Numbered from the stretch's first letter, positions 1 through 7,356 are shown. The stretch is DNA of 7,476 nucleotides from an uncultured archaeon (GCA_964595665.1 CAZQQS010000024.1:1-7476), one strand, 5' to 3'. Program-made: numbers and translations. Notes: generated by a model from the sequence alone, not told the origin.

Positions 1-60
1 TATTTGTTTTAAGATCCATAAATATAATATGCGCCTACCAAAAGGGGGGTGTTTTCGGGG

Positions 61-81
61 GGGTAATTGTCCAATGCGAAA
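61..81. repeat. 21-nt motif GGGTAATTGTCCAATGCGAAA, copy 1 of 2
   Basis: Direct comparison gives 19/21 identity to 6422-6442 (GGGTACTTGTCCGATGCGAAA) in the same orientation. It has 9 G/C positions in a very AT-rich background. Confidence 0.6.
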
Positions 82-103
82 TAGAAGAATACAAGATACA
101 CCT

Positions 104-234
104 AAAAGTTAAAAAGAGAAGAAATAGGTTAAAGATATTTTGAATAGTTTGAAGTTAATTTTCTTTCTGATGTTTTATTTCTGTAGATTAAACAAGAGGA
201 GAGAAAGATTATGAGGTAGTTTTCTGTGGTTTTT
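104..234 (+). repeat. 131-nt direct repeat, copy A (possible paralogous ncRNA gene or island-boundary repeat)
   Basis: Aligns with 4574-4704. The first 57 nt are identical except one T/A change (137 vs 4607). A 12-vs-9-nt variable patch follows. Identical blocks of 28, 22 and 11 nt come next, separated by a 3-nt (CTA) indel and a 1-nt indel. Both copies end in GTGG+T5-6. The last 2 nt overlap the stop codon of the 233-1267 ORF. Confidence 0.85.
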
Positions 235-1267
235 AATTATAATTAATAACTTTCTGTAGTAATTTCTTTGTTTCTTCATTATCTATGAAATCCATTAGAT
301 TAAACTGTTCATAGAATCTATCCATAGAATCATCAAATCTTTCTTTGATTTCGTTTATTTCAAAGACAGTGTTTGTAGATAATTCTTCTAAGTTTAGGTT
401 GTTTTCAATATAATATTGTTTCATGTCGTTTATACAATTGTGAATGGCGATATAATCCCAGAAAGCACTGTATGCCTCTACAAACAAATTTTGTAGTTTG
501 TAATCTTTGTTTTTATTATACATTTTTGTGAAATATATTACAAAATCATAAAAACTATTTATTATATTATAATTGTCTTTAAAGTAAGGTCTTAATTTAG
601 TTAATGTTCTAATATTCTTTTCTACGAAATTAAAATCTTTTGCATATATCTTTTCTAATATTTCATCGGCTAATTTATATAATGGATTTTCATCGTGTTG
701 TTCTTTCTTTAATGTTTTTGCAGATTTAAGTTCTGATTTTGATGCAATATTATCATTAATTATTGTATATATATCTGATAATTTATCTTGATAATAATTT
801 AAATTTACTTTATTTGAATAATCATTATCTGGATTATAAGCTAAGGGAGTAATTTGTCCATATTTATACCACATTACTGGAAGGCCTAATCCCAATTTAT
901 TATTTATTTTTACAACAATTTTTTGCATTTGAACTTTTCCGGGTTTTTGTTGAATTGTAGATAATAAATAATTTTCAACTATTGAAAATAAATTATAGAT
1001 TCTATCTTTATGTTCTTGTATAAGTTTAAAATTAAAATAAGTATCACTAATTTGATCTTGTCTGAGATTTAGAAATGCCTCTGATAGTGAATAATATTTT
1101 TCATCAGAAATCATTTGTTTTACAACAACTCCGTCATCAACTAAATTCAAGATTATTCTATTGACTGTTTCTTTTGGAATTTTTTGTCTCTCTGAAATTA
1201 ATTCTATTGTTGATTTAGAATTTTGAGTTAAATCTAAAACGATTTTACTAAAATTACCTACGCCCAT
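233..1267 (-). CDS. Winged-helix (MarR/ArsR-like) N-terminal domain protein with a large uncharacterised C-terminal region; possible Panacea/DUF4065-like middle segment
   Basis: 344-aa ORF. Residues about 15-60 (STIELISERQKIPKETVNRIILNLVDDGVVVKQ) have a typical wHTH pattern. KVQMQKIVV...MWYKYGQITPLAY loosely resembles the remembered Panacea pattern KLQKLLY...W.hGPVvPsvY. The rest is unrecognised. Confidence 0.6.
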   Translation of the reverse strand: MGVGNFSKIVLDLTQNSKSTIELISERQKIPKETVNRIILNLVDDGVVVKQMISDEKYYSLSEAFLNLRQDQISDTYFNFKLIQEHKDRIYNLFSIVENYLLSTIQQKPGKVQMQKIVVKINNKLGLGLPVMWYKYGQITPLAYNPDNDYSNKVNLNYYQDKLSDIYTIINDNIASKSELKSAKTLKKEQHDENPLYKLADEILEKIYAKDFNFVEKNIRTLTKLRPYFKDNYNIINSFYDFVIYFTKMYNKNKDYKLQNLFVEAYSAFWDYIAIHNCINDMKQYYIENNLNLEELSTNTVFEINEIKERFDDSMDRFYEQFNLMDFIDNEETKKLLQKVINYN

Positions 1268-1366
1268 TTTTTCCCCTTTTATGTTTAAATTTAAGTTTAA
1301 GTGTAATACACTATTAATATTATGTCCTAACTTATATATAAAGGTTTTTGTTAATTTTCCAAACTT

Positions 1367-1384
1367 TACGTGGTTTTACACGTA
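1367..1384. promoter_or_regulatory. Inverted repeat TACGTG-N6-CACGTA in the divergent intergenic region (candidate operator)
   Basis: Perfect 6-bp arms (1367-1372 and 1379-1384), relatively GC-rich. It lies between the minus-directed and plus-directed TATA-like boxes of the wHTH and PIN genes. Confidence 0.35.
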
Positions 1385-1396
1385 TCTTAACATCCA

Positions 1397-1414
1397 CCGA
1401 AAAGTATATATATA
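1397..1414 (+). promoter_or_regulatory. Archaeal-type BRE/TATA (CCGAAAAG TATATATATA) for the PIN gene
   Basis: The TATA starts 46 nt upstream of ATG 1451. The 4823 gene has nearly the same architecture (GCGAAAA TATATACT, 42 nt upstream). Confidence 0.45.
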
Positions 1415-1450
1415 AGTTAAGCACTATTATACATACAAACCTAAATATTA

Positions 1451-2026
1451 ATGGTGGTCAATATCGATGAAGAAAAACAGCAAGTGCTTGATTATTTAGC
1501 GACGGGGTCTCAAATTGTCATGGATACTAATATGTACATCTATTATTACGAATATCAAATGAATATAGTTCCACAAAAACAATGCCAAGACAAAATAACT
1601 AAAGAATCTGTTATTATCATATTTAATTACTTTATAAAAAACAAGATCCCTATTTGTCTGCCTAAGATTATTTATGATGAAGTTAGAAAAGTTATGTCCA
1701 GAAAAAGGGCCGAAGCACTAGAAAAAGGCAAGGATCTATATCAATATAATGAAGACATACTTTATTGGGGATTAACACTGTGTAAGGATTTAGACGAAGA
1801 CTTTGAATCAAAAAACCGAAAACTTGCAAATGATATATTTTTTGATCAATCAAATGACTTTTTAATATACATTTACTGCAAAGAAAAAAATAAAGAAATG
1901 ATAATTACTGAAAACACAGATGATTTTGATGAATGTGAAATACGGTATGATGCACAAATTAATAAAAATCAAACAAAAATTAAAATTTTAAGTATCGCAC
2001 AATGCGCAGATATAATTAATTCGTAA
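1451..2026 (+). CDS. PIN-domain-like nuclease (VapC-like fold)
   Basis: 191-aa ORF. The acidic residues are spaced as in PIN domains: IVMDTNMYIYY (D25), IYDEV, SNDFLIYIY, and a C-terminal IITENTDDFDE that resembles the T-x-D-x-DF signature. Confidence 0.6.
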   Translation: MVVNIDEEKQQVLDYLATGSQIVMDTNMYIYYYEYQMNIVPQKQCQDKITKESVIIIFNYFIKNKIPICLPKIIYDEVRKVMSRKRAEALEKGKDLYQYNEDILYWGLTLCKDLDEDFESKNRKLANDIFFDQSNDFLIYIYCKEKNKEMIITENTDDFDECEIRYDAQINKNQTKIKILSIAQCADIINS

Positions 2027-2039
2027 AGAAGGCGAAATA

Positions 2040-2213
2040 ATGGGTGCGAAAGCAATAATTTTAGGGATTTTTGCAGTATTAATTGCATTAACTTTTGTTT
2101 TTTATTTTATAAACTCCGGAGATCCAAATATGCGTTCAGCAGGATGGACCGTATTAGGGGGGTTTATAGTTGCAGGAATTATAGGGACAGTAATTGCAGT
2201 TGCAAGAAGATGA
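2040..2213 (+). CDS. Small (57 aa) two-transmembrane-helix peptide, not in the supplied ORF track
   Basis: My translation is MGAKAIILGIFAVLIALTFVFYFINSGDPNMRSAGWTVLGGFIVAGIIGTVIAVARR*. There are two hydrophobic helices separated by a polar loop, and an RR C-terminus. The ATG is 13 nt after the PIN stop and is preceded by GAAGG. Local GC is higher than in the surrounding non-coding DNA. Confidence 0.55.
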   Translation: MGAKAIILGIFAVLIALTFVFYFINSGDPNMRSAGWTVLGGFIVAGIIGTVIAVARR

Positions 2214-2230
2214 TTATTCAATAATCATCT
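2208..2230. terminator. Perfect palindrome AGATGATTATT-C-AATAATCATCT followed by T6; candidate bidirectional terminator
   Basis: The 11-nt arms are exactly complementary. The hairpin contains the stop codons of both convergent ORFs (TGA 2211-2213 and TAA complement 2214-2216). A T-run lies at 2232-2237. Confidence 0.5.
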
Positions 2231-2600
2231 CTTTTTTCCCATCTTTAATTCCATTAAAGATGAGATTATACTCATTTCCAGTTAATTCTACAAGGTTTTG
2301 GTATTTATTGTCTTCCTTAAGTAAAGTAAACTTATCTTGTAATTGCTTAGCAATTAATCCTTTTTGAGATAATAATACTTGTTTTAATTTAACTTGATAA
2401 GGATATTTCTTTTTCCAATTATTAAATTCATCATTAACTAGTTTTTCTGCTTCAAATATTCCAAAGACTATTCCTTGTCCGTAATAAATTATTATATCTC
2501 CAGGAGTTATTAAATCTCTTTCATCTTCAGACATAAAACCACAATACTCTTTGGTTTTCATGTAAGATTCCCAAGAGTGGTTGATTAGGTAGTGTTTCAT
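2214..2600 (-). CDS. EVE/PUA-like (ASCH-superfamily, archaeal UPF0310-like) small protein
   Basis: 128-aa ORF. KHYLINHSWESY...GF...ITPGDIIIYYGQGIVFGIFEAE...YPYQVKLK matches the remembered EVE pattern (YWL..s..nW....g.wG....l..vkpGD.v.fY....ivGi.ev...w...v.v). The start is 2 nt after the upstream gene's stop. Confidence 0.5.
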   Translation of the reverse strand: MKHYLINHSWESYMKTKEYCGFMSEDERDLITPGDIIIYYGQGIVFGIFEAEKLVNDEFNNWKKKYPYQVKLKQVLLSQKGLIAKQLQDKFTLLKEDNKYQNLVELTGNEYNLIFNGIKDGKKEMIIE

Positions 2601-2602
2601 AT

Positions 2603-3853
2603 TTATTCTCTTTTTATTTCTTTCAATCTCTTCAAGAATATAGTCTGATAAGACTCACTAACTTTTAAAATCCATTTAAAATATTCTGGCCATTTGTCTT
2701 CTTTTTCCATATCTGCAGAAATTTGGTCACTAATTATTGCTCCTTTAAGTTCTGGTTTATCATCCCATTTTAAAGATTTGCCGTATTCTTTTTCAATAGC
2801 CTCTTTATCTTCATATATTGAATTGTATGCTTCTTTATTGAAAAAATATAAATCTGCAGCGATGATGTTTTTCTTACGATTAATTTTTATCGCAATTCCT
2901 GCATTTGAGTTGCCTATTGCTATTGAATAATATGAGGGAGTTGTTGGCTGTGCTCTACCCAATCTTAATTTACTATTTTGTTCTTTTGCATAAATAATAA
3001 ATTGATTAATAAATTCAATATTTTGTAATGCTGTAGTTGATAATTCTTTACTGTACATTGTATTCCTAATAACTTTGGCCCAATCGTTAGGTTTAGATAT
3101 AATTTGAAATTTTGGGGCGCAAGGACTATCTCCAATTTGCCAAAGTTCTATTTTAATTAAAAAGAAGTTTATATTTTCACTACTGTGTTCATTTAACCAA
3201 TCTATTGCTCTTTGATGTTCTTCTCTTATATCTTTTACTACCCAAATTATTATTTCTGCGTCATATCCTGAAGCGTAAGTAACTATTTTTCCTAAATGGT
3301 CATGATCTGTTGTTTCAAGTTGATTTTCAATAATTATTATTTTTCCTTTAGTAGATAATACTTTCTTAATGAAATTATCCTTTCCATTAAAATAAATGCC
3401 ATCTCCTTCTTGGTCTATAGTTTTCTTTTTGGTTTTTTTGTTAATATAAATAAATCTTTTAATTAGTCCTTTTTTTACTCCAAGACCTGTTTTCTTAAAG
3501 AATATTGTTTGTGTAGTAAACCCTAGTGTTGATTTTTTTGTTTCTTTTAGATATGCTATCATAGATTCAATTAGAAGCTTTCCGTAGTTTTTTCCTTTTT
3601 CAATAGCAATTACGCTACAAATTCCAAATATCTTGTATTTTTTGTTTAGATAGTTTATAGTTATTGGTTGTAGAACAAGAAAAGCTTTTATTTTTGATTT
3701 TTTCTTTACAAACATAACAACAGAACTAAGAGGATAGTCTTTTTTCCAGTTTTTTGTTGCTGTTTTTCCAAAATTAGTAATTCTGCCTCTATTCATTAGA
3801 GTCATTTCTTTTGTAGATAAATCTTTTAGTTTTTTATGTTCTGTAGTTATCAT
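2603..3853 (-). CDS. Fusion protein: N-terminal GNAT acetyltransferase + PD-(D/E)xK-nuclease remnant + DUF4268-like C-terminal domain
   Basis: 416-aa ORF. GNAT motif A is ICSVIAIEKGKNYGKLLIESMIAYL, followed by FFKKTGLG. A K-rich linker follows (INKKTKKKT). Next comes IIIIENQLETTDHDHLGKIVTYASGYDAEIIIWVV...AIDWLNE...NFFLIKIELWQIGDSPCAPKF...KPNDW, the conserved core I recall from nuclease-DUF4268 proteins. The tail is DUF4268-like (LKWDD...KGAIIS...DKWPEYFKW). Confidence 0.6.
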   Translation of the reverse strand: MITTEHKKLKDLSTKEMTLMNRGRITNFGKTATKNWKKDYPLSSVVMFVKKKSKIKAFLVLQPITINYLNKKYKIFGICSVIAIEKGKNYGKLLIESMIAYLKETKKSTLGFTTQTIFFKKTGLGVKKGLIKRFIYINKKTKKKTIDQEGDGIYFNGKDNFIKKVLSTKGKIIIIENQLETTDHDHLGKIVTYASGYDAEIIIWVVKDIREEHQRAIDWLNEHSSENINFFLIKIELWQIGDSPCAPKFQIISKPNDWAKVIRNTMYSKELSTTALQNIEFINQFIIYAKEQNSKLRLGRAQPTTPSYYSIAIGNSNAGIAIKINRKKNIIAADLYFFNKEAYNSIYEDKEAIEKEYGKSLKWDDKPELKGAIISDQISADMEKEDKWPEYFKWILKVSESYQTIFLKRLKEIKRE

Positions 3854-3866
3854 AATATCTTATGTT

Positions 3867-4370
3867 TTAAATCTTTTTCATAATCTTTGTCATAAACTTG
3901 CTTTTAAGTTTTTGATATAGATGCCCGTCATCTTTACAATGTTTAACTGCGTTTTTCTTAATTAGTATATATTCATCACAATCGGCTTTATTATTTATTA
4001 AATAATCTCTAAATTTAACTCTTTTATCAAAAGTCTTTTGACTTGTAGTAAGATGGATATGTATGAATCGTTCTCCATTTTTAGATTTATATTTCTTTAG
4101 TAGAAATACTCTTTCTTCATCATCATGTCTGCTTCTTAATTCATATTTGTGTTTAACAAGTAAATTTATTACTGGATTTAATTGTGATTTTTTTATTTTT
4201 ATAATAATATCAATAACCCCTTTGCCTCCAAGGCCTGGAACAGCAGTACTGCCAAAATGTTCTATTTTTGGGTTATATTTTTTTAGAACTGGAATTAATT
4301 TCTTTAATTCCAAAGAATATTGTTTTTTATAGTTTGGATTATATTCTTCAAATTTATATTTGCTTGCCAT
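3867..4370 (-). CDS. grpB: GrpB-family (UPF0157) nucleotidyltransferase-fold protein
   Basis: 167-aa ORF. IEHFGSTAVPGLGGKGVIDIII matches the GrpB signature (iEHiGSTsVPGl.aKpiIDI). It also has FIHIHL and FRDYLINNKADCDEYILIKK (FRDyL..hp....eY..lK). Confidence 0.75.
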   Translation of the reverse strand: MASKYKFEEYNPNYKKQYSLELKKLIPVLKKYNPKIEHFGSTAVPGLGGKGVIDIIIKIKKSQLNPVINLLVKHKYELRSRHDDEERVFLLKKYKSKNGERFIHIHLTTSQKTFDKRVKFRDYLINNKADCDEYILIKKNAVKHCKDDGHLYQKLKSKFMTKIMKKI

Positions 4371-4391
4371 ATTAAATATTATTATACATAA

Positions 4392-4401
4392 TATTTAAAT
4401 A
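4392..4401 (-). promoter_or_regulatory. TATA-like box TATTTAAATA for the GrpB operon
   Basis: Palindromic A/T box about 31 nt upstream of ATG 4370 on the minus strand. This is consistent with a leaderless or short-leader archaeal transcript. Confidence 0.35.
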
Positions 4402-4573
4402 CTTACTAAAAGTTATTAATTACCGGTTTTATGTTTTAAGTTAATTGGTTTTTTTGGAAAAATATAGAGTATTTTTTTGGTTTTTTGGTTATTTACAGAT
4501 AGATATAAGATATAATTAATATGAAAGTTTAGATTTTAGATAATTAACAAAACAGAGACTCCTCCCCCAAAAG

Positions 4574-4704
4574 AAAAGTTAAAAAGAGAAGAAATAGGTT
4601 AAAGATAATTTGAATAGTTTGAAGTTAATTATTTGGTAGTTTTATTTCTGTAGATTAAACAAGAGGACTAGAGAAAGATTATGAGGTAGTTTCTGTGGTT
4701 TTTT
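4574..4704 (+). repeat. 131-nt direct repeat, copy B
   Basis: See copy A (104-234). It lies in the divergent intergenic region between grpB (-) and the 4823 gene (+), upstream of that gene's own BRE/TATA. Confidence 0.85.
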
Positions 4705-4773
4705 GTAAAAACTCAACTTTTTCTCCAAAATTGCCAATTTCACAAAATTTGAGGGTTTTTTATTTGTTTTGTT

Positions 4774-4788
4774 GCGAAAATATATACT
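4774..4788 (+). promoter_or_regulatory. Archaeal-type BRE/TATA (GCGAAAA TATATACT) for the candidate nuclease gene
   Basis: 42 nt upstream of ATG 4823. It is nearly the same element as the one upstream of the PIN gene. Confidence 0.45.
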
Positions 4789-4822
4789 TAAAATAGATTC
4801 CTAAAAAAATTTGTGAAAATAA

Positions 4823-5395
4823 ATGAAAATTAAAGACGTAAAAACTGCATTTAAAGTTGCAGATGTTGTATTAGATAAAGAACATGAAAAACGCAAAATA
4901 AAATTTGTATTTCTCACAGAAATAATTGATGAGCACAATACTAAAATTAATAATAATATTTTAACCGATAATTCTGGAAGAATTTATATAATTGTATCTA
5001 ATGGGATAATAAAAAAAATTGGCGGCTCCCAATCTAAAGGTGGAATAAAATCTACTATGTCTTTTTATCAAGGGGGAATGCAAGGCGGACCAAGTATAAG
5101 AACTTATGGAGTACATATTTTAATAAAAGAAGAACTAGAACAAAATAATAACGTTGAAATTTATATGATTACTTCTGAAAAAACCATGATGAAAGTAAAA
5201 GGACTTTTTGATGAAAAAGAAATAGAAGTTGCTGCATTTAAAGACATGGAAGACCGATGTAAAACTGATTATAAAAATGTTGAAGGAAAGTATCCACCTT
5301 GGAATTTCCAAGAAAATGGTGAAATTTGGCGTGCTGATATTTTAAGAGGCCACAACCTACATGACAAACAAAGAAAAAGTTTGCAGTATAATTAA
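4823..5395 (+). CDS. Candidate type II restriction endonuclease with a GIY-YIG-like motif
   Basis: 190-aa ORF, convergent with a Dam-class methyltransferase and overlapping it by 4 nt. GRIYIIVSNGIIKKIGG (res 52-68) resembles GIY-x10-YIG with Lys replacing the second Tyr. I recall this variant from R.Hpy188I but cannot verify it here. SIRTYGVH lies downstream. No PD-(D/E)xK motif is evident. Confidence 0.45.
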   Translation: MKIKDVKTAFKVADVVLDKEHEKRKIKFVFLTEIIDEHNTKINNNILTDNSGRIYIIVSNGIIKKIGGSQSKGGIKSTMSFYQGGMQGGPSIRTYGVHILIKEELEQNNNVEIYMITSEKTMMKVKGLFDEKEIEVAAFKDMEDRCKTDYKNVEGKYPPWNFQENGEIWRADILRGHNLHDKQRKSLQYN

Positions 5396-6375
5396 ATTCT
5401 AGGTGGACAATAAATTACTATTTCGTGAGATCCTTTTATGTGATCTGCACCTTTTTCTATCCTATTTTTCCCTATTCTAGTTTCTCCTTGACCCATAGTA
5501 TATTGCCATGTAGGAAAACTTAATTTATATTCTTTATACCATTCTCTAATTGTTGGGCAGTCATTATAAGATACAATAAAGCCGCCTTTATGATTTTTAA
5601 GTAATTCTCTAAGTTTTTCGTGTTTAAATCCATTGTGATGTATTGGTATATTCCTCATAGGATATATCCCTTTAAACATTTTTGATCCTTCTCCAATATA
5701 ATATGGAGGATCGCAATAAAAGAAATCGTTAGGATATTTCTTGAAAACCTCTTCGAAATCCCCACACTCTACTTTTAGATTTTTTGGTTTGAAATCTCTA
5801 ACTTTTTCAATTGTGTGATTATATTTTTTATTATCTAAATAAATTTTAGATGTCCAACCTAAAAAACCGGGGCCATAGGACAAATTAAAATTAAAATAAT
5901 AGTATACTGCTAATGTTAATGAATCTAATTTTGTTTTTCCTTCCCAGTGTGCCTTCAATTTCAATCTAATATCAGTATATGTTTTTTCATCAGGATTTAT
6001 TTCTTTTAATCTATCATAAAGTTGTTTTGGTTTTTCTATTTGAAATTTCCAATAATTAACTAATATATCAAATATATCATAACCAATAACTTCTAAATCC
6101 AAATATTTACTTGCAGCAATTTCTACTGAACCTCCGCCAAAAAAAGGAGAAATTAATCTCGTAGTTGTGTTTGGTAATAATTCAATAATATACCCAACAG
6201 CTAAACTTTTGCCTCCTGCATATCTTATTGGAGATACTGGCACTCTCTTATAATAATTCATACTTTTTGGATTTTTACTTCTAATACTATCCAAAAAGTT
6301 TCTTTTCTTTATCTCAAATTCATTATTTTTATTTTTAAAAAGTAATTTTTGAGAATCATTTATTTTTGCAGCCAT
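5392..6375 (-). CDS. N6-adenine DNA methyltransferase, D12/Dam class (alpha group)
   Basis: 327-aa ORF. It has RYAGGKS (Dam-family N-terminal motif), FFGGGSVE (motif I, FxGxG) and FYCDPPYY (motif IV, DPPY, encoded at 5701-5712). Motif I precedes motif IV, which is the alpha-group order. Confidence 0.85.
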   Translation of the reverse strand: MAAKINDSQKLLFKNKNNEFEIKKRNFLDSIRSKNPKSMNYYKRVPVSPIRYAGGKSLAVGYIIELLPNTTTRLISPFFGGGSVEIAASKYLDLEVIGYDIFDILVNYWKFQIEKPKQLYDRLKEINPDEKTYTDIRLKLKAHWEGKTKLDSLTLAVYYYFNFNLSYGPGFLGWTSKIYLDNKKYNHTIEKVRDFKPKNLKVECGDFEEVFKKYPNDFFYCDPPYYIGEGSKMFKGIYPMRNIPIHHNGFKHEKLRELLKNHKGGFIVSYNDCPTIREWYKEYKLSFPTWQYTMGQGETRIGKNRIEKGADHIKGSHEIVIYCPPRI

Positions 6376-6403
6376 ATTATATCAATAAGATTGTGTTTTA
6401 ACT

Positions 6404-6415
6404 AATTTAAAAAGC
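6404..6415 (-). promoter_or_regulatory. TATA-like box (CTTTTTAAATTA on the minus strand) for the methyltransferase gene
   Basis: About 30-40 nt upstream of ATG 6375. There is no SD-like sequence, so the transcript is probably short-leader or leaderless. Confidence 0.35.
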
Positions 6416-6421
6416 TTTCTA

Positions 6422-6442
6422 GGGTACTTGTCCGATGCGAAA
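6422..6442. repeat. 21-nt motif GGGTACTTGTCCGATGCGAAA, copy 2 of 2
   Basis: 19/21 identity to 61-81. It lies between the Nudix stop (6445) and the methyltransferase TATA box. Confidence 0.6.
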
Positions 6443-6444
6443 AT

Positions 6445-6837
6445 TTATCTTTTTAATTCATTTACTACTTGTACATCTGCGGGTGCAAATTTATAATTAT
6501 CAATTTCAGCAAGATTTATCCATTTTATTTGTTCGTGTGAATTAACTTTTATTTCTCCTTTAAAAGAATCTACTAAAAAAACCATTAATTCAATTTCAAC
6601 ATCTGAGGTTATATAATTTGAAATACAAAATAAATTACCGACGTTTGCCTCTATATTTAATTCTTCAAATAACTCTCTTTTTAAGCAACCTTCCGGGGTT
6701 TCATTAAGTTCTATCTTCCCCCCTGGAAATTCCCACAATAATGAAAAAAAGTCTTCTTTTTTTCTTTGAGTAATCAGTATTTTCCCCTCTTTTTTAATTA
6801 TACCTGCGATTACTAGTATTTTTTTCAAAATTCTCAC
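6445..6837 (-). CDS. Nudix hydrolase, MutT/NudG-like
   Basis: 130-aa ORF. LWEFPGGKIELNETPEGCLKRELFEELN fits the Nudix box Gx5Ex7REUxEExGU, with the last G replaced by N. The ORF starts at GTG (CAC at 6835-6837), 6 nt after the upstream Nudix stop. Confidence 0.8.
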   Translation of the reverse strand: MRILKKILVIAGIIKKEGKILITQRKKEDFFSLLWEFPGGKIELNETPEGCLKRELFEELNIEANVGNLFCISNYITSDVEIELMVFLVDSFKGEIKVNSHEQIKWINLAEIDNYKFAPADVQVVNELKR

Positions 6838-6843
6838 AATATT

Positions 6844-7356
6844 TTACTTAATGTTATCAATAAAATGTTTTATTGCTTCTCTAAAGGTTGGTGCAAAGTC
6901 TTCTGGGTTTTTGTTTATCTCTTCTTTTATTTCGTCTAAACTGAAATCTTTGAAGTATTGAATCTCTTCAGGATTTGGTTTTAATATGTTTGGATTTATT
7001 TCATCTTTAGTGGTATATACTTTGAAAAAACTTTTATATTCTGGAGTATCATAAAAGAAAGAACAAACTTCTTGAAGTTCTAGTTGTGTTCCTACTTCTT
7101 CAATACTTTCTCTTATTGCACCATCTAGATAAGATTCATTTGCAAGAATCTTCCCTCCAATACAACAAATCCAAGTATTTGGAAATGGTTGTTGCGTTTT
7201 TGACCTTTTTGAGAGAATAAATCTATTGTTTGCAGTTCTTGGGATTACTAAAGAACATTTATGAAAAAACATTCTTGTTTTAAGTTCTGATTTTGGATGA
7301 ACAGCTATAATATTTCCATTAATGTCTAGCTCTTCAATAAATTCTTCAGAAATCAT
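6844..7356 (-). CDS. Nudix hydrolase (second, divergent paralogue)
   Basis: 170-aa ORF. GGKILANESYLDGAIRESIEEVG fits the Nudix box exactly (G-x5-E-x7-RE-x2-EE-x-G). Confidence 0.8.
   Translation of the reverse strand: MISEEFIEELDINGNIIAVHPKSELKTRMFFHKCSLVIPRTANNRFILSKRSKTQQPFPNTWICCIGGKILANESYLDGAIRESIEEVGTQLELQEVCSFFYDTPEYKSFFKVYTTKDEINPNILKPNPEEIQYFKDFSLDEIKEEINKNPEDFAPTFREAIKHFIDNIK

What the first reader, a model, noticed from the sequence alone, without database searches (positions are those of the whole stretch)
104..4704. Two 131-nt direct repeats bracket a ~4.3-kb accessory module lacking any integrase
Copies at 104-234 and 4574-4704 are near-identical apart from one substitution, a 9-12-nt variable patch, a 3-nt indel and a 1-nt indel. 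They flank exactly the six accessory genes (wHTH, PIN, TM peptide, EVE, GNAT fusion, GrpB). Each copy ends in GTGG plus T5-6, an archaeal oligo-T terminator-like end. Each is preceded by an A/T box about 25-35 nt upstream of its left edge (GCGAAATAGAAGAATA for A, TTTTAGATAATTA for B). A ~130-nt paralogous ncRNA is therefore one option. The element is purine-rich and contains an internal echo (GGTAGTTT..TCTGTRG occurs twice in copy B). Other options are recombination scars or boundary repeats that allow cassette exchange or excision by homologous recombination. The length and central divergence are atypical for a simple att core.
Basis: seen in the sequence. Interest (0 to 1): 0.7.

Follow-up and report, generated by a model that had tools for sequence, protein, structure and literature searches.

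The report
Repeat-bounded gene cassette in a Woesearchaeon
Two real, imperfect 131-base direct repeats bracket a 4.3-kb block of defence-type genes in a tiny-celled (DPANN) archaeon, and related contigs suggest the block was inserted by recombination at this repeat, but no recombinase, no RNA structure and no proof of mobility was found.

Summary
Copies at 104-234 and 4574-4704 share 123 of 135 aligned columns, lie 4470 nt apart, and lose homology sharply at both edges. They enclose exactly six ORFs and no recombinase. The window is a whole 7.5-kb MAG contig of a Woesearchaeota-like archaeon.

The repeat is not a known RNA: no Rfam or tRNA hit, folding no better than shuffles, no covariation. 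It is not a common dispersed repeat. It is built from iterated TTTCTGTRG / GGTAGTTT sub-motifs. A diverged copy abuts the stop codon of the wHTH homologue in L017.

In L008, L009 and L018 the two promoter modules flanking the window's block lie next to each other, with neither block nor repeat between them. In L010/L011 the block's two outer ends (wHTH 3' end and GrpB promoter) are joined through a repeat remnant, which is a circular permutation.

Best reading (about 0.45): attL/attR-like junction repeats of an integrase-less, circularly permutable cassette that inserted into a divergent promoter spacer in a variable restriction-modification/defence region.

Rivals are local duplication, a small unstructured RNA, and a wHTH-binding iteron site. 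Interest is moderate.

The parts
104..234 (+). Repeat copy A (131 nt). Its 3' end (GTGGTTTTT) overlaps the stop codon of the minus-strand wHTH gene by 2 nt.
   Evidence: A diverged homologue sits in the same position relative to the wHTH homologue in L017.
4574..4704 (+). Repeat copy B (131 nt). It lies in the divergent spacer between the GrpB operon (minus strand) and the endonuclease gene orf190 (plus strand). Its T-run runs into motif 2.
   Evidence: Its last 32 nt plus motif 2 are independently assembled in L001.
161..171 (+). Non-homologous patch of copy A (TTCTTTCTGAT). The counterpart in B is 4631-4638 (ATTTGGTA), which together with the nucleotides flanking it echoes B's own 3' end (ATTATTTGGTAGTTT versus ATTATGAGGTAGTTT).
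   Evidence: (family D5).
178..259 (+). Iterated sub-motif TTTCTGTRG at 178, 221 and 251. The last one lies inside the wHTH C-terminal codons (LQK). Copy B has it at 4645 and 4690. GGTAGTTT is at 215, 4635 and 4685.
   Evidence: 5 and 3 matches; expected 0.18 and 0.16. The same clustering is seen in L017 and L010.
233..1267 (-). wHTH protein (344 aa): an N-terminal winged helix plus an all-helical C-terminal domain of unknown function. It forms a conserved divergent pair with the PIN-like gene.
1451..2026 (+). PIN-like protein (191 aa), the conserved divergent partner of wHTH.
   Evidence: weak PIN hits; co-occurrence in L012-17, L020-21.
2040..2213 (+). 57-aa predicted membrane peptide. Its stop codon directly abuts the stop codon of the next, convergent gene.
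2214..2600 (-). 128-aa protein.
   Evidence: no Pfam hit; weak PRK00809, E 0.002.
2603..3853 (-). 416-aa fusion protein. The C-terminal part is DUF4268 / PADLOC candidate defence protein PDC-S11. The N-terminal part is at best a weak GNAT.
   Evidence: (3.7e-78).
3867..4370 (-). GrpB-family protein (167 aa), first gene of the minus-strand GrpB-fusion-128aa operon.
   Evidence: 7e-31.
4371..4573 (.). Spacer between the GrpB start codon and copy B. Only its GrpB-proximal 41 nt (the promoter) are conserved in L010.
40..103 (.). Left flank. It holds the G-run variant of a conserved promoter module, motif 1 (TTTTCGGGGGGGTAATTGTCCAATGCGAAA), followed by 21 nt. In relatives this module is directly followed by motif 2.
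4698..4797 (+). Right flank. It holds motif 2 (TTTTTGTAAAAACTCAAC..AAATTGCCAATTTCACAAAATTTGAGGGTTTTTT) followed by the BRE/TATA-like GCGAAAATATATAC of orf190.
4823..6375 (.). Context outside the module: a Type II restriction-modification pair. orf190 is an endonuclease on the plus strand; the D12/Dam-class methyltransferase is on the minus strand.
   Evidence: 1.6e-119; phrog_1111, 2.3e-14.

Best explanation
The two copies are junction repeats (attL/attR-like) of a ~4.47-kb gene block: wHTH, PIN-like, TM peptide, 128-aa protein, PDC-S11 fusion, GrpB.

The block sits inside the spacer of a divergent promoter region, motif 1 | motif 2. This lies next to a restriction-modification pair in a variable defence region of a Woesearchaeota-like genome.

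The repeated unit is a non-coding module made of iterated TAGTTT(T)CTGTRG sub-repeats. Its native place is the 3' flank of the wHTH gene.

Inferred mechanism: recombination between two pre-existing, already diverged copies of this module inserted the block. One copy lay on a circular or tandem form of the block, between the GrpB promoter and the wHTH stop codon. The other lay at the chromosomal spacer. The recombination was either homologous or carried out by a recombinase encoded elsewhere. The same repeats would allow the block's loss or exchange.

Shown:
- The repeats and their sharp edges.
- The lack of any recombinase in the block.
- Adjacency of the two flanks in relatives.
- A permuted junction in a related contig.
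- Conservation of the copy A-wHTH linkage.

Inferred:
- The circular intermediate.
- The pre-existing chromosomal copy.
- The recombination route.
For: 1. The repeats are direct and far beyond chance, and homology ends abruptly at both edges.

2. L009 shows syntenic context: NUDIX, methyltransferase, convergent gene, motif 2, motif 1. There motif 1 and motif 2 lie within a few tens of nt of each other. L008 and L018 (8604-8700) show the same adjacency. In the window 4.6 kb (about 85-4699) separates them.

3. In L010/L011, window 4295-4411 (GrpB 5' end plus promoter, 86% identity) and window 226-639 (GTGGTTTT plus wHTH 3' end, 87.5%) are only 351 nt apart and face outward relative to the window. 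Between them is a same-orientation remnant of the element's 3' ~45 nt. This is the junction expected of a circle or tandem array.

4. In L017 (wHTH 63% aa identity) a diverged element abuts the wHTH stop codon. It is preceded by the same G-run motif 1 variant.

5. The element is rare. A 20-mer common to both copies is absent from 185,579 GTDB species genomes. In JGI metagenomes it gave only a chance hit. Two other patterns drawn from the element had no hit in IMG/VR. An HMM of the element finds nothing else in ~150 kb of related loci.

6. A and B differ by four events, whereas independently assembled pieces of the block are 99.5-100% identical to the window. This fits copies of different origin.

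7. Base composition of the block equals that of the flanks, so the donor was of the same lineage.
Against: - No integrase or other recombinase is present in the block. The only DNA-binding protein has a plain wHTH fold.
- No relative with exactly one repeat copy between motif 1 and motif 2 was found. The 'empty' sites have none, and they come from distant relatives (NUDIX about 80% aa identity).
- Motif 1 and motif 2 are general promoter modules. They are adjacent in only 3 of 6 motif 2 instances outside the window, so the empty-site inference rests mainly on L009 synteny.
- The L010 junction holds only a partial element plus 289 nt of unrelated DNA, and its wHTH gene is frameshifted and mosaic. 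L010 and L011 appear to come from the same read set (L010's record name gives run ERR1193289; identical sequence over their overlap, different assemblers).
- No independent contig spans either repeat completely.
- At 131 nt and 91% identity, the repeats are unlike known archaeal att sites (8-69 bp; PMC6563490).
- Four mutational events could also have accumulated in place after a local duplication.
Confidence: 0.45

Rival explanations
1. Local rearrangement without any mobile stage. A tandem duplication of a block in L010-like order (wHTH, element, GrpB...) was trimmed by deletions, or a copy of the wHTH 3' flank was duplicated. This left two passive copies of the flank that have since diverged in place. 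The repeats would then be scars with no present function.
For: - The element's only well-conserved part is the 60 nt next to the highly conserved wHTH 3' end. Conservation decays with distance from the gene.
- Only four mutational events separate A and B, three of them indel- or slippage-like events in a sub-repeat-rich sequence.
- There is no recombinase.
- Composition is identical to the flanks.
Against: - It requires two precise deletions ending exactly at the element's edges.
- It does not explain why motif 1 and motif 2 are adjacent in three relatives, one of them syntenic.
- It does not explain why the left edge of homology is as sharp as the right one.
Confidence: 0.2
2. Two paralogous genes for a small, largely unstructured, purine-rich RNA of about 130-155 nt. 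Each would be transcribed from an upstream BRE/TATA-like box and stopped at the oligo-T run. The block between them would be incidental, or the RNA gene would double as the recombination target, as tRNA genes do.
For: - Ends are discrete. The 5' 10-mer AAAGTTAAAA and the 3' GTGGTTTT are both retained in L017.
- T5-6 lies at the 3' end of the + strand.
- GCGAAA-TAGAAGAATA lies 22 nt before copy A. It corresponds to the BRE/TATA-like right end of motif 1, which in L004 sits at leaderless distance before a gene.
- GAAAG-TTTAGATT and TTTTAGATAATTAA lie 30-50 nt before copy B.
Against: - No Rfam family matches, even at E <= 10.
- The minimum free energy is no better than shuffles (z +1.22 and -0.71).
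- The RNAalifold consensus is -3.65 kcal/mol with a covariation penalty.
- The 5' half is at chance-level identity in L017 (52% versus 48% for shuffles) and is lost in L010.
- TATA-like strings are ubiquitous at 25% GC, and the upstream flanks of A and B are unrelated.
- wHTH-PIN loci in L012-16 and L020-22 lack the element.
Confidence: 0.15
3. A cis-acting DNA site: an iteron- or centromere-like array of TAGTTT(T)CTGTRG repeats bound by the adjacent wHTH protein. It could serve regulation, partition or replication of a small plasmid-like element, and is present once per unit. This reading is compatible with the best explanation and would name the module's function.
For: - TTTCTGTRG is confined to the elements and the wHTH 3' end in the window, L017 and L010, spaced about 30-50 nt apart.
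- GTGGTTTT also occurs inside a palindrome (ACGTGGTTTTACACGT, 1367-1382) in the wHTH-PIN divergent promoter.
- The best structural match of the wHTH domain is AspA, the pNOB8 centromere-binding protein (E 4e-3, 31-33% identity over 64 residues).
Against: - The AspA match covers only a generic winged helix.
- There is no ParA/ParB or Rep protein in the block.
- No wHTH homologue was found in PLSDB, INPHARED or IMG/VR.
- The promoter palindrome is not conserved in L012 or L017.
- Most wHTH loci lack the element.
Confidence: 0.12
4. Assembly chimera. The contig joins a chromosome and a separate replicon, or two strains, through a shared repeat, so the bracketing arrangement does not exist in any one molecule.
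For: - No independent contig spans a whole copy. L001 stops 32 nt inside B.
- L003 (same sample as L001) carries the wHTH-PIN-TM stretch with a different left flank.
Against: - The copies differ at four places, and the longest shared exact run is 34 nt. An assembler using k >= 55 would therefore not confuse them.
- Each of the four junction types has some independent support: B-motif 2 in L001, element-wHTH in L017, GrpB promoter-element in L010, and motif 1 followed by the element in L017.
- L003 itself may be a k=31 switch to a paralogous wHTH 3' end, because 5 of its 6 mismatches lie in the last 64 nt.
Confidence: 0.05

Closest known systems
attL/attR direct repeats of archaeal integrated mobile elements (SSV/pRN-type elements, 'cryptic integrated elements'; Krupovic et al. 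2019, PMC6563490)
   Same: Direct repeats bracket a small block of accessory and defence genes at an intergenic site. Relatives have the flanks joined. A permuted (circle-like) junction exists in a related contig.
   Different: - The repeats are 131 nt and only 91% identical, against 8-69 bp exact cores.
- No integrase, which by definition is the most conserved gene of such elements.
- No tRNA or gene 3' end as target.
- The empty sites seen here carry no copy of the repeat.
Genomic islets gained or lost by homologous recombination between dispersed direct repeats (general RecA/RadA-dependent deletion or integration; own knowledge)
   Same: Long imperfect direct repeats, no dedicated recombinase, a variable defence neighbourhood, and mosaic breakpoints near the repeats (L003, L010).
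   Different: Only two copies are known and the longest perfect identity is 34 nt. No population evidence for gain or loss was obtainable here.
Plasmid iterons / centromere-like repeat arrays bound by a wHTH protein (e.g. AspA-centromere of pNOB8, PDB 5k5q)
   Same: Short direct sub-repeats lie next to the gene of a winged-helix protein whose best structural match is AspA.
   Different: The match is generic. There is no partition ATPase or Rep protein, the array lies 3' of the gene, and binding is untested.
Integron gene cassettes with attC sites (also reported in Archaea; own knowledge)
   Same: Recombination sites of about 60-140 nt bound promoter-less or accessory gene cassettes in variable arrays.
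   Different: attC sites are imperfect inverted repeats that fold into hairpins, and each normally bounds one ORF next to an IntI integrase. Here there is no hairpin, six ORFs on both strands, and no IntI.

Membership tests
Integrase-mediated integrated element (attL/attR) | Direct repeats flanking the element | tested here: met
Integrase-mediated integrated element (attL/attR) | Tyrosine/serine recombinase or other integrase encoded in the element | tested here: not met
   No such domain in any of the 10 ORFs searched with Pfam, nor in the 6-8 of them also searched with NCBIfam, PADLOC or PHROGs. The wHTH model shows no recombinase fold.
Integrase-mediated integrated element (attL/attR) | Empty site in relatives carrying one att copy | tested here: inconclusive
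   The flanks are adjacent in L008, L009 and L018, but with zero copies of the repeat, and these are distant relatives.
Integrase-mediated integrated element (attL/attR) | Circular/excised junction joining the element's two ends through one att | tested here: inconclusive
   L010/L011 join the wHTH 3' end and the GrpB promoter through a partial element plus 289 nt of extra DNA. Whether that molecule is circular is unknown.
Integrase-mediated integrated element (attL/attR) | Short exact core, usually in a tRNA gene or gene 3' end | tested here: not met
   The repeats are 131 nt with four differences. No tRNA was found. The site is intergenic. Published archaeal att lengths are 8-69 bp.
Known structured ncRNA family (Rfam 15) | Covariance-model match or a conserved, covarying secondary structure | tested here: not met
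   no match; z +1.2 / -0.7; -3.65 kcal/mol, covariation term +2.78.
Archaeal sRNA gene (generic) | Own promoter, discrete transcript, oligo-T terminator | not testable with these tools
   TATA-like boxes and T5-6 runs are present, but no expression data are available.
Integron cassette / attC | Imperfect inverted repeat forming a hairpin, single-ORF cassettes, IntI nearby | tested here: not met
MITE / IS / composite transposon | Terminal inverted repeats, target-site duplication, transposase | tested here: not met
   By eye, the element's ends are not inverted copies of each other and no TSD flanks the copies or the insert. No transposase was found.
Diversity-generating retroelement (TR/VR pair; common in DPANN, own knowledge) | Reverse transcriptase, VR inside a coding region, adenine-specific mismatches | tested here: not met
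   No RT was found. Both copies are non-coding. The differences are a patch and indels.
Assembly artefact (k-mer terminal overlap) | Identical repeats at contig ends equal to the assembler's k | tested here: not met
   The copies are internal and non-identical.

The most novel reading that the evidence does not exclude
A previously undescribed kind of small, integrase-less mobile cassette of DPANN archaea. It would be a ~4.5-kb circularly permuting unit that carries defence and toxin genes. It would move between conserved promoter-module junctions by means of its own ~130-nt iteron-like module (TAGTTTTCTGTRG repeats). That module would be recognised by the cassette's AspA-like wHTH protein or by an unknown host recombination function.
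Probability: 0.1. Interest if true: 0.75.

Novelty: new variant of a known kind. Interest (0 to 1): 0.4.

Why it matters
Mobile elements and the routes of gene flow in DPANN archaea are almost unknown, because the organisms are uncultured and their genomes are fragmentary. Suppose the block really moves by recombination at a long non-coding module without its own integrase. That would show how defence and toxin cassettes are shuffled in these reduced genomes. It would also give a sequence handle (the element plus the conserved promoter modules motif 1 and motif 2) for finding variable 'slots' in other MAGs. If it is only a local duplication scar, it is an ordinary feature of a variable defence region.

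Tried and rejected
**RNA tests (all negative)**
- Rfam at E <= 10 on the window and on the L017 element region, and Rfam gathering threshold on 10 loci: nothing relevant.
- ARAGORN: no tRNA or tmRNA.
- Single-sequence folds of both strands and both copies: not better than shuffles.
- RNAalifold: no support.
- The GC-richer 188-nt stretch of L017: fold not significant.

**Collection scans**
- An exact 20-mer from the element had 0 hits in GTDB genomes.
- In JGI metagenomes it gave 1 hit, a chance match inside a coding region of L002.
- Three IMG/VR scans with element or wHTH-derived patterns gave nothing.
- Two scans with motif 1 or motif 2 patterns gave only chance hits in unrelated, GC-richer contigs L023 and L024.
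- The wHTH protein has no match in PLSDB or INPHARED.

**Alternatives considered and dropped**
- Small-ORF reading. Minus-strand ORFs 175-279 and 4642-4743 share KLPHNLSL(V)LLFNLQK but have no common start. The apparent peptides across motif 1 and motif 2 are in different frames in different loci. Rejected.
- C/D-box sRNA. The CUGAUG in A's patch is absent from B. Rejected.
- Cas12a-like repeat. The TTTCTGTAGAT resemblance lacks the stem. Rejected.
- DGR, integron attC, MITE: see the membership tests.
- Circular contig. The ends do not overlap, and the motif 1 orientation relative to NUDIX170 is wrong for closure.
- Extension of the repeat into the upstream TATA-like boxes: not significant.
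- TIRs on the 289-nt insert of L010: none.
- The bacterial promoter/terminator scan is uninformative for an archaeon.

**Exhausted resources**
The source genome's other contigs could therefore not be examined.

Full report
**What the window is**

The window is a complete 7476-nt contig of an NCBI metagenome-assembled genome. Its NUDIX protein (6844-7356) has 79-80% identical relatives in a Candidatus Woesearchaeota MAG (L008) and an unclassified archaeal MAG (L009). The host is therefore a DPANN archaeon with about 25% G+C.

- Copies at 104-234 and 4574-4704 are direct and 4470 nt apart.
- They consist of a 57-nt block (56/57 identical), a non-homologous patch (11 nt versus 8 nt), a 29-nt identical block, a CTA indel, a 21-nt block, a single-T indel, and GTGG plus T5 or T6.
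- 123 of 135 aligned columns are identical.
- The longest exact run is 34 nt, against at most 18 nt in shuffled windows.
- Homology ends abruptly on both sides. The 60-nt flanks are no more alike than shuffles (p = 0.89 and 0.97).
- The element is made of sub-repeats. TTTCTGTRG occurs five times in the window, all in or beside the copies (expected 0.18). GGTAGTTT occurs three times (expected 0.16).

**The enclosed genes**

| ORF | Evidence |
|---|---|
| wHTH, 344 aa | Weak Pfam TrmB/HTH_24. AlphaFold model pLDDT 71. Only the N-terminal winged helix matches solved structures, best AspA of pNOB8 (E 4e-3) |
| PIN-like, 191 aa | Weak PIN hits |
| Membrane peptide, 57 aa | ORF only |
| 128-aa protein | 'EVE' label could not be confirmed |
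| Fusion protein, 416 aa | C-terminal two-thirds are DUF4268 / PADLOC candidate defence protein PDC-S11 (3.7e-78) |
| GrpB | 7e-31 |

Nothing resembles an integrase, transposase or Rep protein. To the right lies a Type II restriction-modification pair: a phrog_1111 endonuclease and a D12 methyltransferase.

**The element as an RNA**

- No Rfam family matches, even at E <= 10, and there is no tRNA.
- Neither strand of either copy folds better than shuffles.
- The consensus fold of A, B and the L017 homologue is -3.65 kcal/mol with a covariation penalty.
- Between the window and L017 the element is 62% identical: 70-73% in the 3' 60 nt, and 52% in the 5' half against 48% for shuffles. The adjacent gene is 73% identical, and 89% in its last 150 nt. 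The element therefore evolves faster than its neighbour.
- Points in favour remain. Ends are discrete (AAAGTTAAAA and GTGGTTTT are both kept in L017). There is an oligo-T tail. BRE/TATA-like boxes lie upstream. The box before copy A is the right-hand end of a conserved promoter module, and in L004 that end stands at leaderless distance from a gene.
- Without expression data this stays a minority reading.

**Distribution of the element**

- A 20-mer common to both copies is absent from one genome of each of 185,579 species. Its single hit in JGI metagenomes is a chance match.
- Two other patterns drawn from the element have no hit in IMG/VR.
- An HMM of the element finds only A, B, one copy in L017, and a weak partial copy in L010/L011 among the fetched related loci.
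- It is not a common dispersed repeat.

**Comparative anatomy**

1. *L017.* Its wHTH protein is 63% identical. A diverged element abuts the wHTH stop codon exactly as copy A does. It is preceded, after 170 nt, by the same G-run variant of a module I call motif 1.

2. *Motif 1.* The sequence is TATA - TTTC[TG]AGGGTA[GC] or a G-run - CTGTCCARTG - CGAAA/T-rich. It is a conserved promoter module found before many genes, including the window's own methyltransferase at 6400-6445.

3. *Motif 2.* This is window 4698-4790. It recurs upstream of other genes in L004, L008, L009 and L018.

4. *Adjacent flanks.* In L008, L009 and one L018 site, motif 1 and motif 2 lie within a few tens of nt of each other. 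L009 is syntenic with the window: NUDIX, C5 methyltransferase, convergent gene, motif 2, motif 1. In the window they are separated by about 4.6 kb (85-4699). That stretch is 21 nt, copy A, the six genes, a 203-nt spacer, and copy B. The block is thus an insertion into a divergent promoter spacer, and the 'empty' sites hold no copy of the repeat.

5. *Permuted junction.* In L010/L011, window 4295-4411 (GrpB 5' end and promoter, 86% identity) and window 226-639 (GTGGTTTT plus wHTH 3' end, 87.5% identity) are only 351 nt apart. They are arranged outward relative to the window.
   - Between them is a same-orientation remnant of the element's 3' ~45 nt.
   - Then come 289 unrelated nt bounded by CTGTGGTTT and CAGTGGTTT.
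   - This is the junction expected from a circular or tandem form of the block.
   - Caveats: the L010 wHTH gene is mosaic and frameshifted, and L010 and L011 appear to be two assemblies of the same data.

6. *The wHTH-PIN module.* wHTH and the PIN-like gene form a conserved divergent pair in all loci. Most of them (L012-16, L020-22) lack the element.

7. *L003.* It comes from the same sample as L001. It carries window 237-2256 at 99.7% identity, but with a GNAT gene instead of copy A on the left. Five of its six mismatches lie in the last 64 nt. It is therefore either a recombinant strain or a k=31 switch to a paralogous wHTH 3' end.

**Synthesis**

The most economical account is that the element is natively the 3' flank of the wHTH gene. 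On this account the six-gene block exists or existed as a circle or tandem unit with one element between the GrpB promoter and the wHTH stop. Recombination between that copy and a second, already diverged copy in the chromosomal spacer then produced the present direct repeats, which could also mediate loss. I give this about 0.45.

Weak points:
- There is no recombinase.
- No one-copy empty site was found.
- The element in L010 is only partial.
- The repeats are much longer and less exact than known archaeal att sites (8-69 bp; PMC6563490).

Rivals:
- A local duplication with in-place divergence (0.2).
- An unstructured small RNA gene (0.15).
- A wHTH-binding iteron array (0.12). This is compatible with the main model.
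- An assembly chimera (0.05). This is unlikely because the copies differ at four places and share at most 34 exact nt, and because each junction type has some independent support.

**Verdict**

This is a real, non-chance feature, best filed as a new variant of a known kind: a genomic islet bounded by att-like direct repeats, here unusually long, imperfect and without an integrase. Interest is moderate (0.4). It would rise if read-level evidence showed excision or a circular form, because DPANN mobile elements are barely known.

Noticed in passing
window 40-84 and 6400-6445; L004 3950-3990 and 6575-6653; L008 2350-2400; L009 7360-7400 and 9414-9480; L017 1620-1665; L018 8670-8720: Motif 1 is a conserved ~45-nt promoter module: TATA, then TTTC[TG]AGGGTA[GC] or a G-run variant (GTCATTTTCGGGGGGGTA), then CTGTCCARTG, then CGAAA/T-rich. 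It precedes many unrelated genes in these Woesearchaeota contigs. It looks bidirectional, with BRE/TATA-like ends on both sides.
   Followed up: partly
window 4698-4790; L008 2282-2340; L009 9322-9413; L018 7661-7771 and 8604-8669; L004 12434-12523 and 12641-12693: Motif 2 recurs upstream of endonuclease-like and other genes. Its core is the 6-1-6 palindrome AAATTGNCAATTT, which appears as AAATTAGTAATTT (a symmetric change) in one L004 copy. It may be an operator or controller-protein box of restriction-modification cassettes.
   Followed up: partly
window 233-2026; L012 9208-11032; L017 3-1366; L020/L021: The wHTH (344 aa) and PIN-like genes form a conserved divergent pair across all homologous loci, like a toxin-antitoxin or defence module. 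The wHTH family has only about 9 clusters among 5.8 billion proteins. L020 carries two paralogues.
   Followed up: partly
window 2603-3853 (-): Residues 168-412 of the 416-aa protein match the PADLOC candidate defence family PDC-S11 (3.7e-78), DUF4268 and phrog_27742. The N-terminal 167 residues are only marginally GNAT-like (E 0.16).
   Followed up: partly
window 4823-6375: orf190 (phrog_1111 endonuclease, 2.3e-14) and the D12 methyltransferase converge and overlap by 4 nt, as expected for a Type II restriction-modification pair. Relatives carry different restriction-modification systems at the same place beside NUDIX170 (L004: D12 plus N6_N4 methyltransferases; L009: C5 methyltransferase).
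   Followed up: partly
window 1367-1382: The palindrome ACGTGGTTTTACACGT in the wHTH-PIN divergent promoter shares GTGGTTTT with the 3' end of the repeat. The corresponding position in L017 reads ATGTAGATTTTCAT, which resembles that locus's own element sub-repeat.
   Followed up: partly
L017 1478-1640 (-) and L004 12530-12640 (-): GC-richer stretches of 110-170 nt are inserted between the conserved intergenic modules (motif 1 and the element in L017; two motif 2 copies in L004). There is no Rfam hit and folding is not significant. Their origin is unknown.
   Followed up: partly
window 2211-2216: The stop codon of the 57-aa membrane-peptide gene (+) directly abuts the stop codon of the convergent 128-aa gene (-) with no spacer. 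The Logan contig L003 ends 43 nt beyond this point. It may be a module boundary inside the block.
   Followed up: no
window 175-279 (-) and 4642-4743 (-): Minus-strand micro-ORFs over both copies share the hydrophobic peptide KLPHNLSL(V)LLFNLQK, and the CTA indel is in frame. They have no common start codon, so I judged them non-genic.
   Followed up: yes
L011 1-17: The contig starts with an Illumina adapter remnant (GTGTGCTCTTCCGATCT). L010 and L011 are identical over their overlap, including the junction region, and look like two assemblies of the same reads.
   Followed up: no
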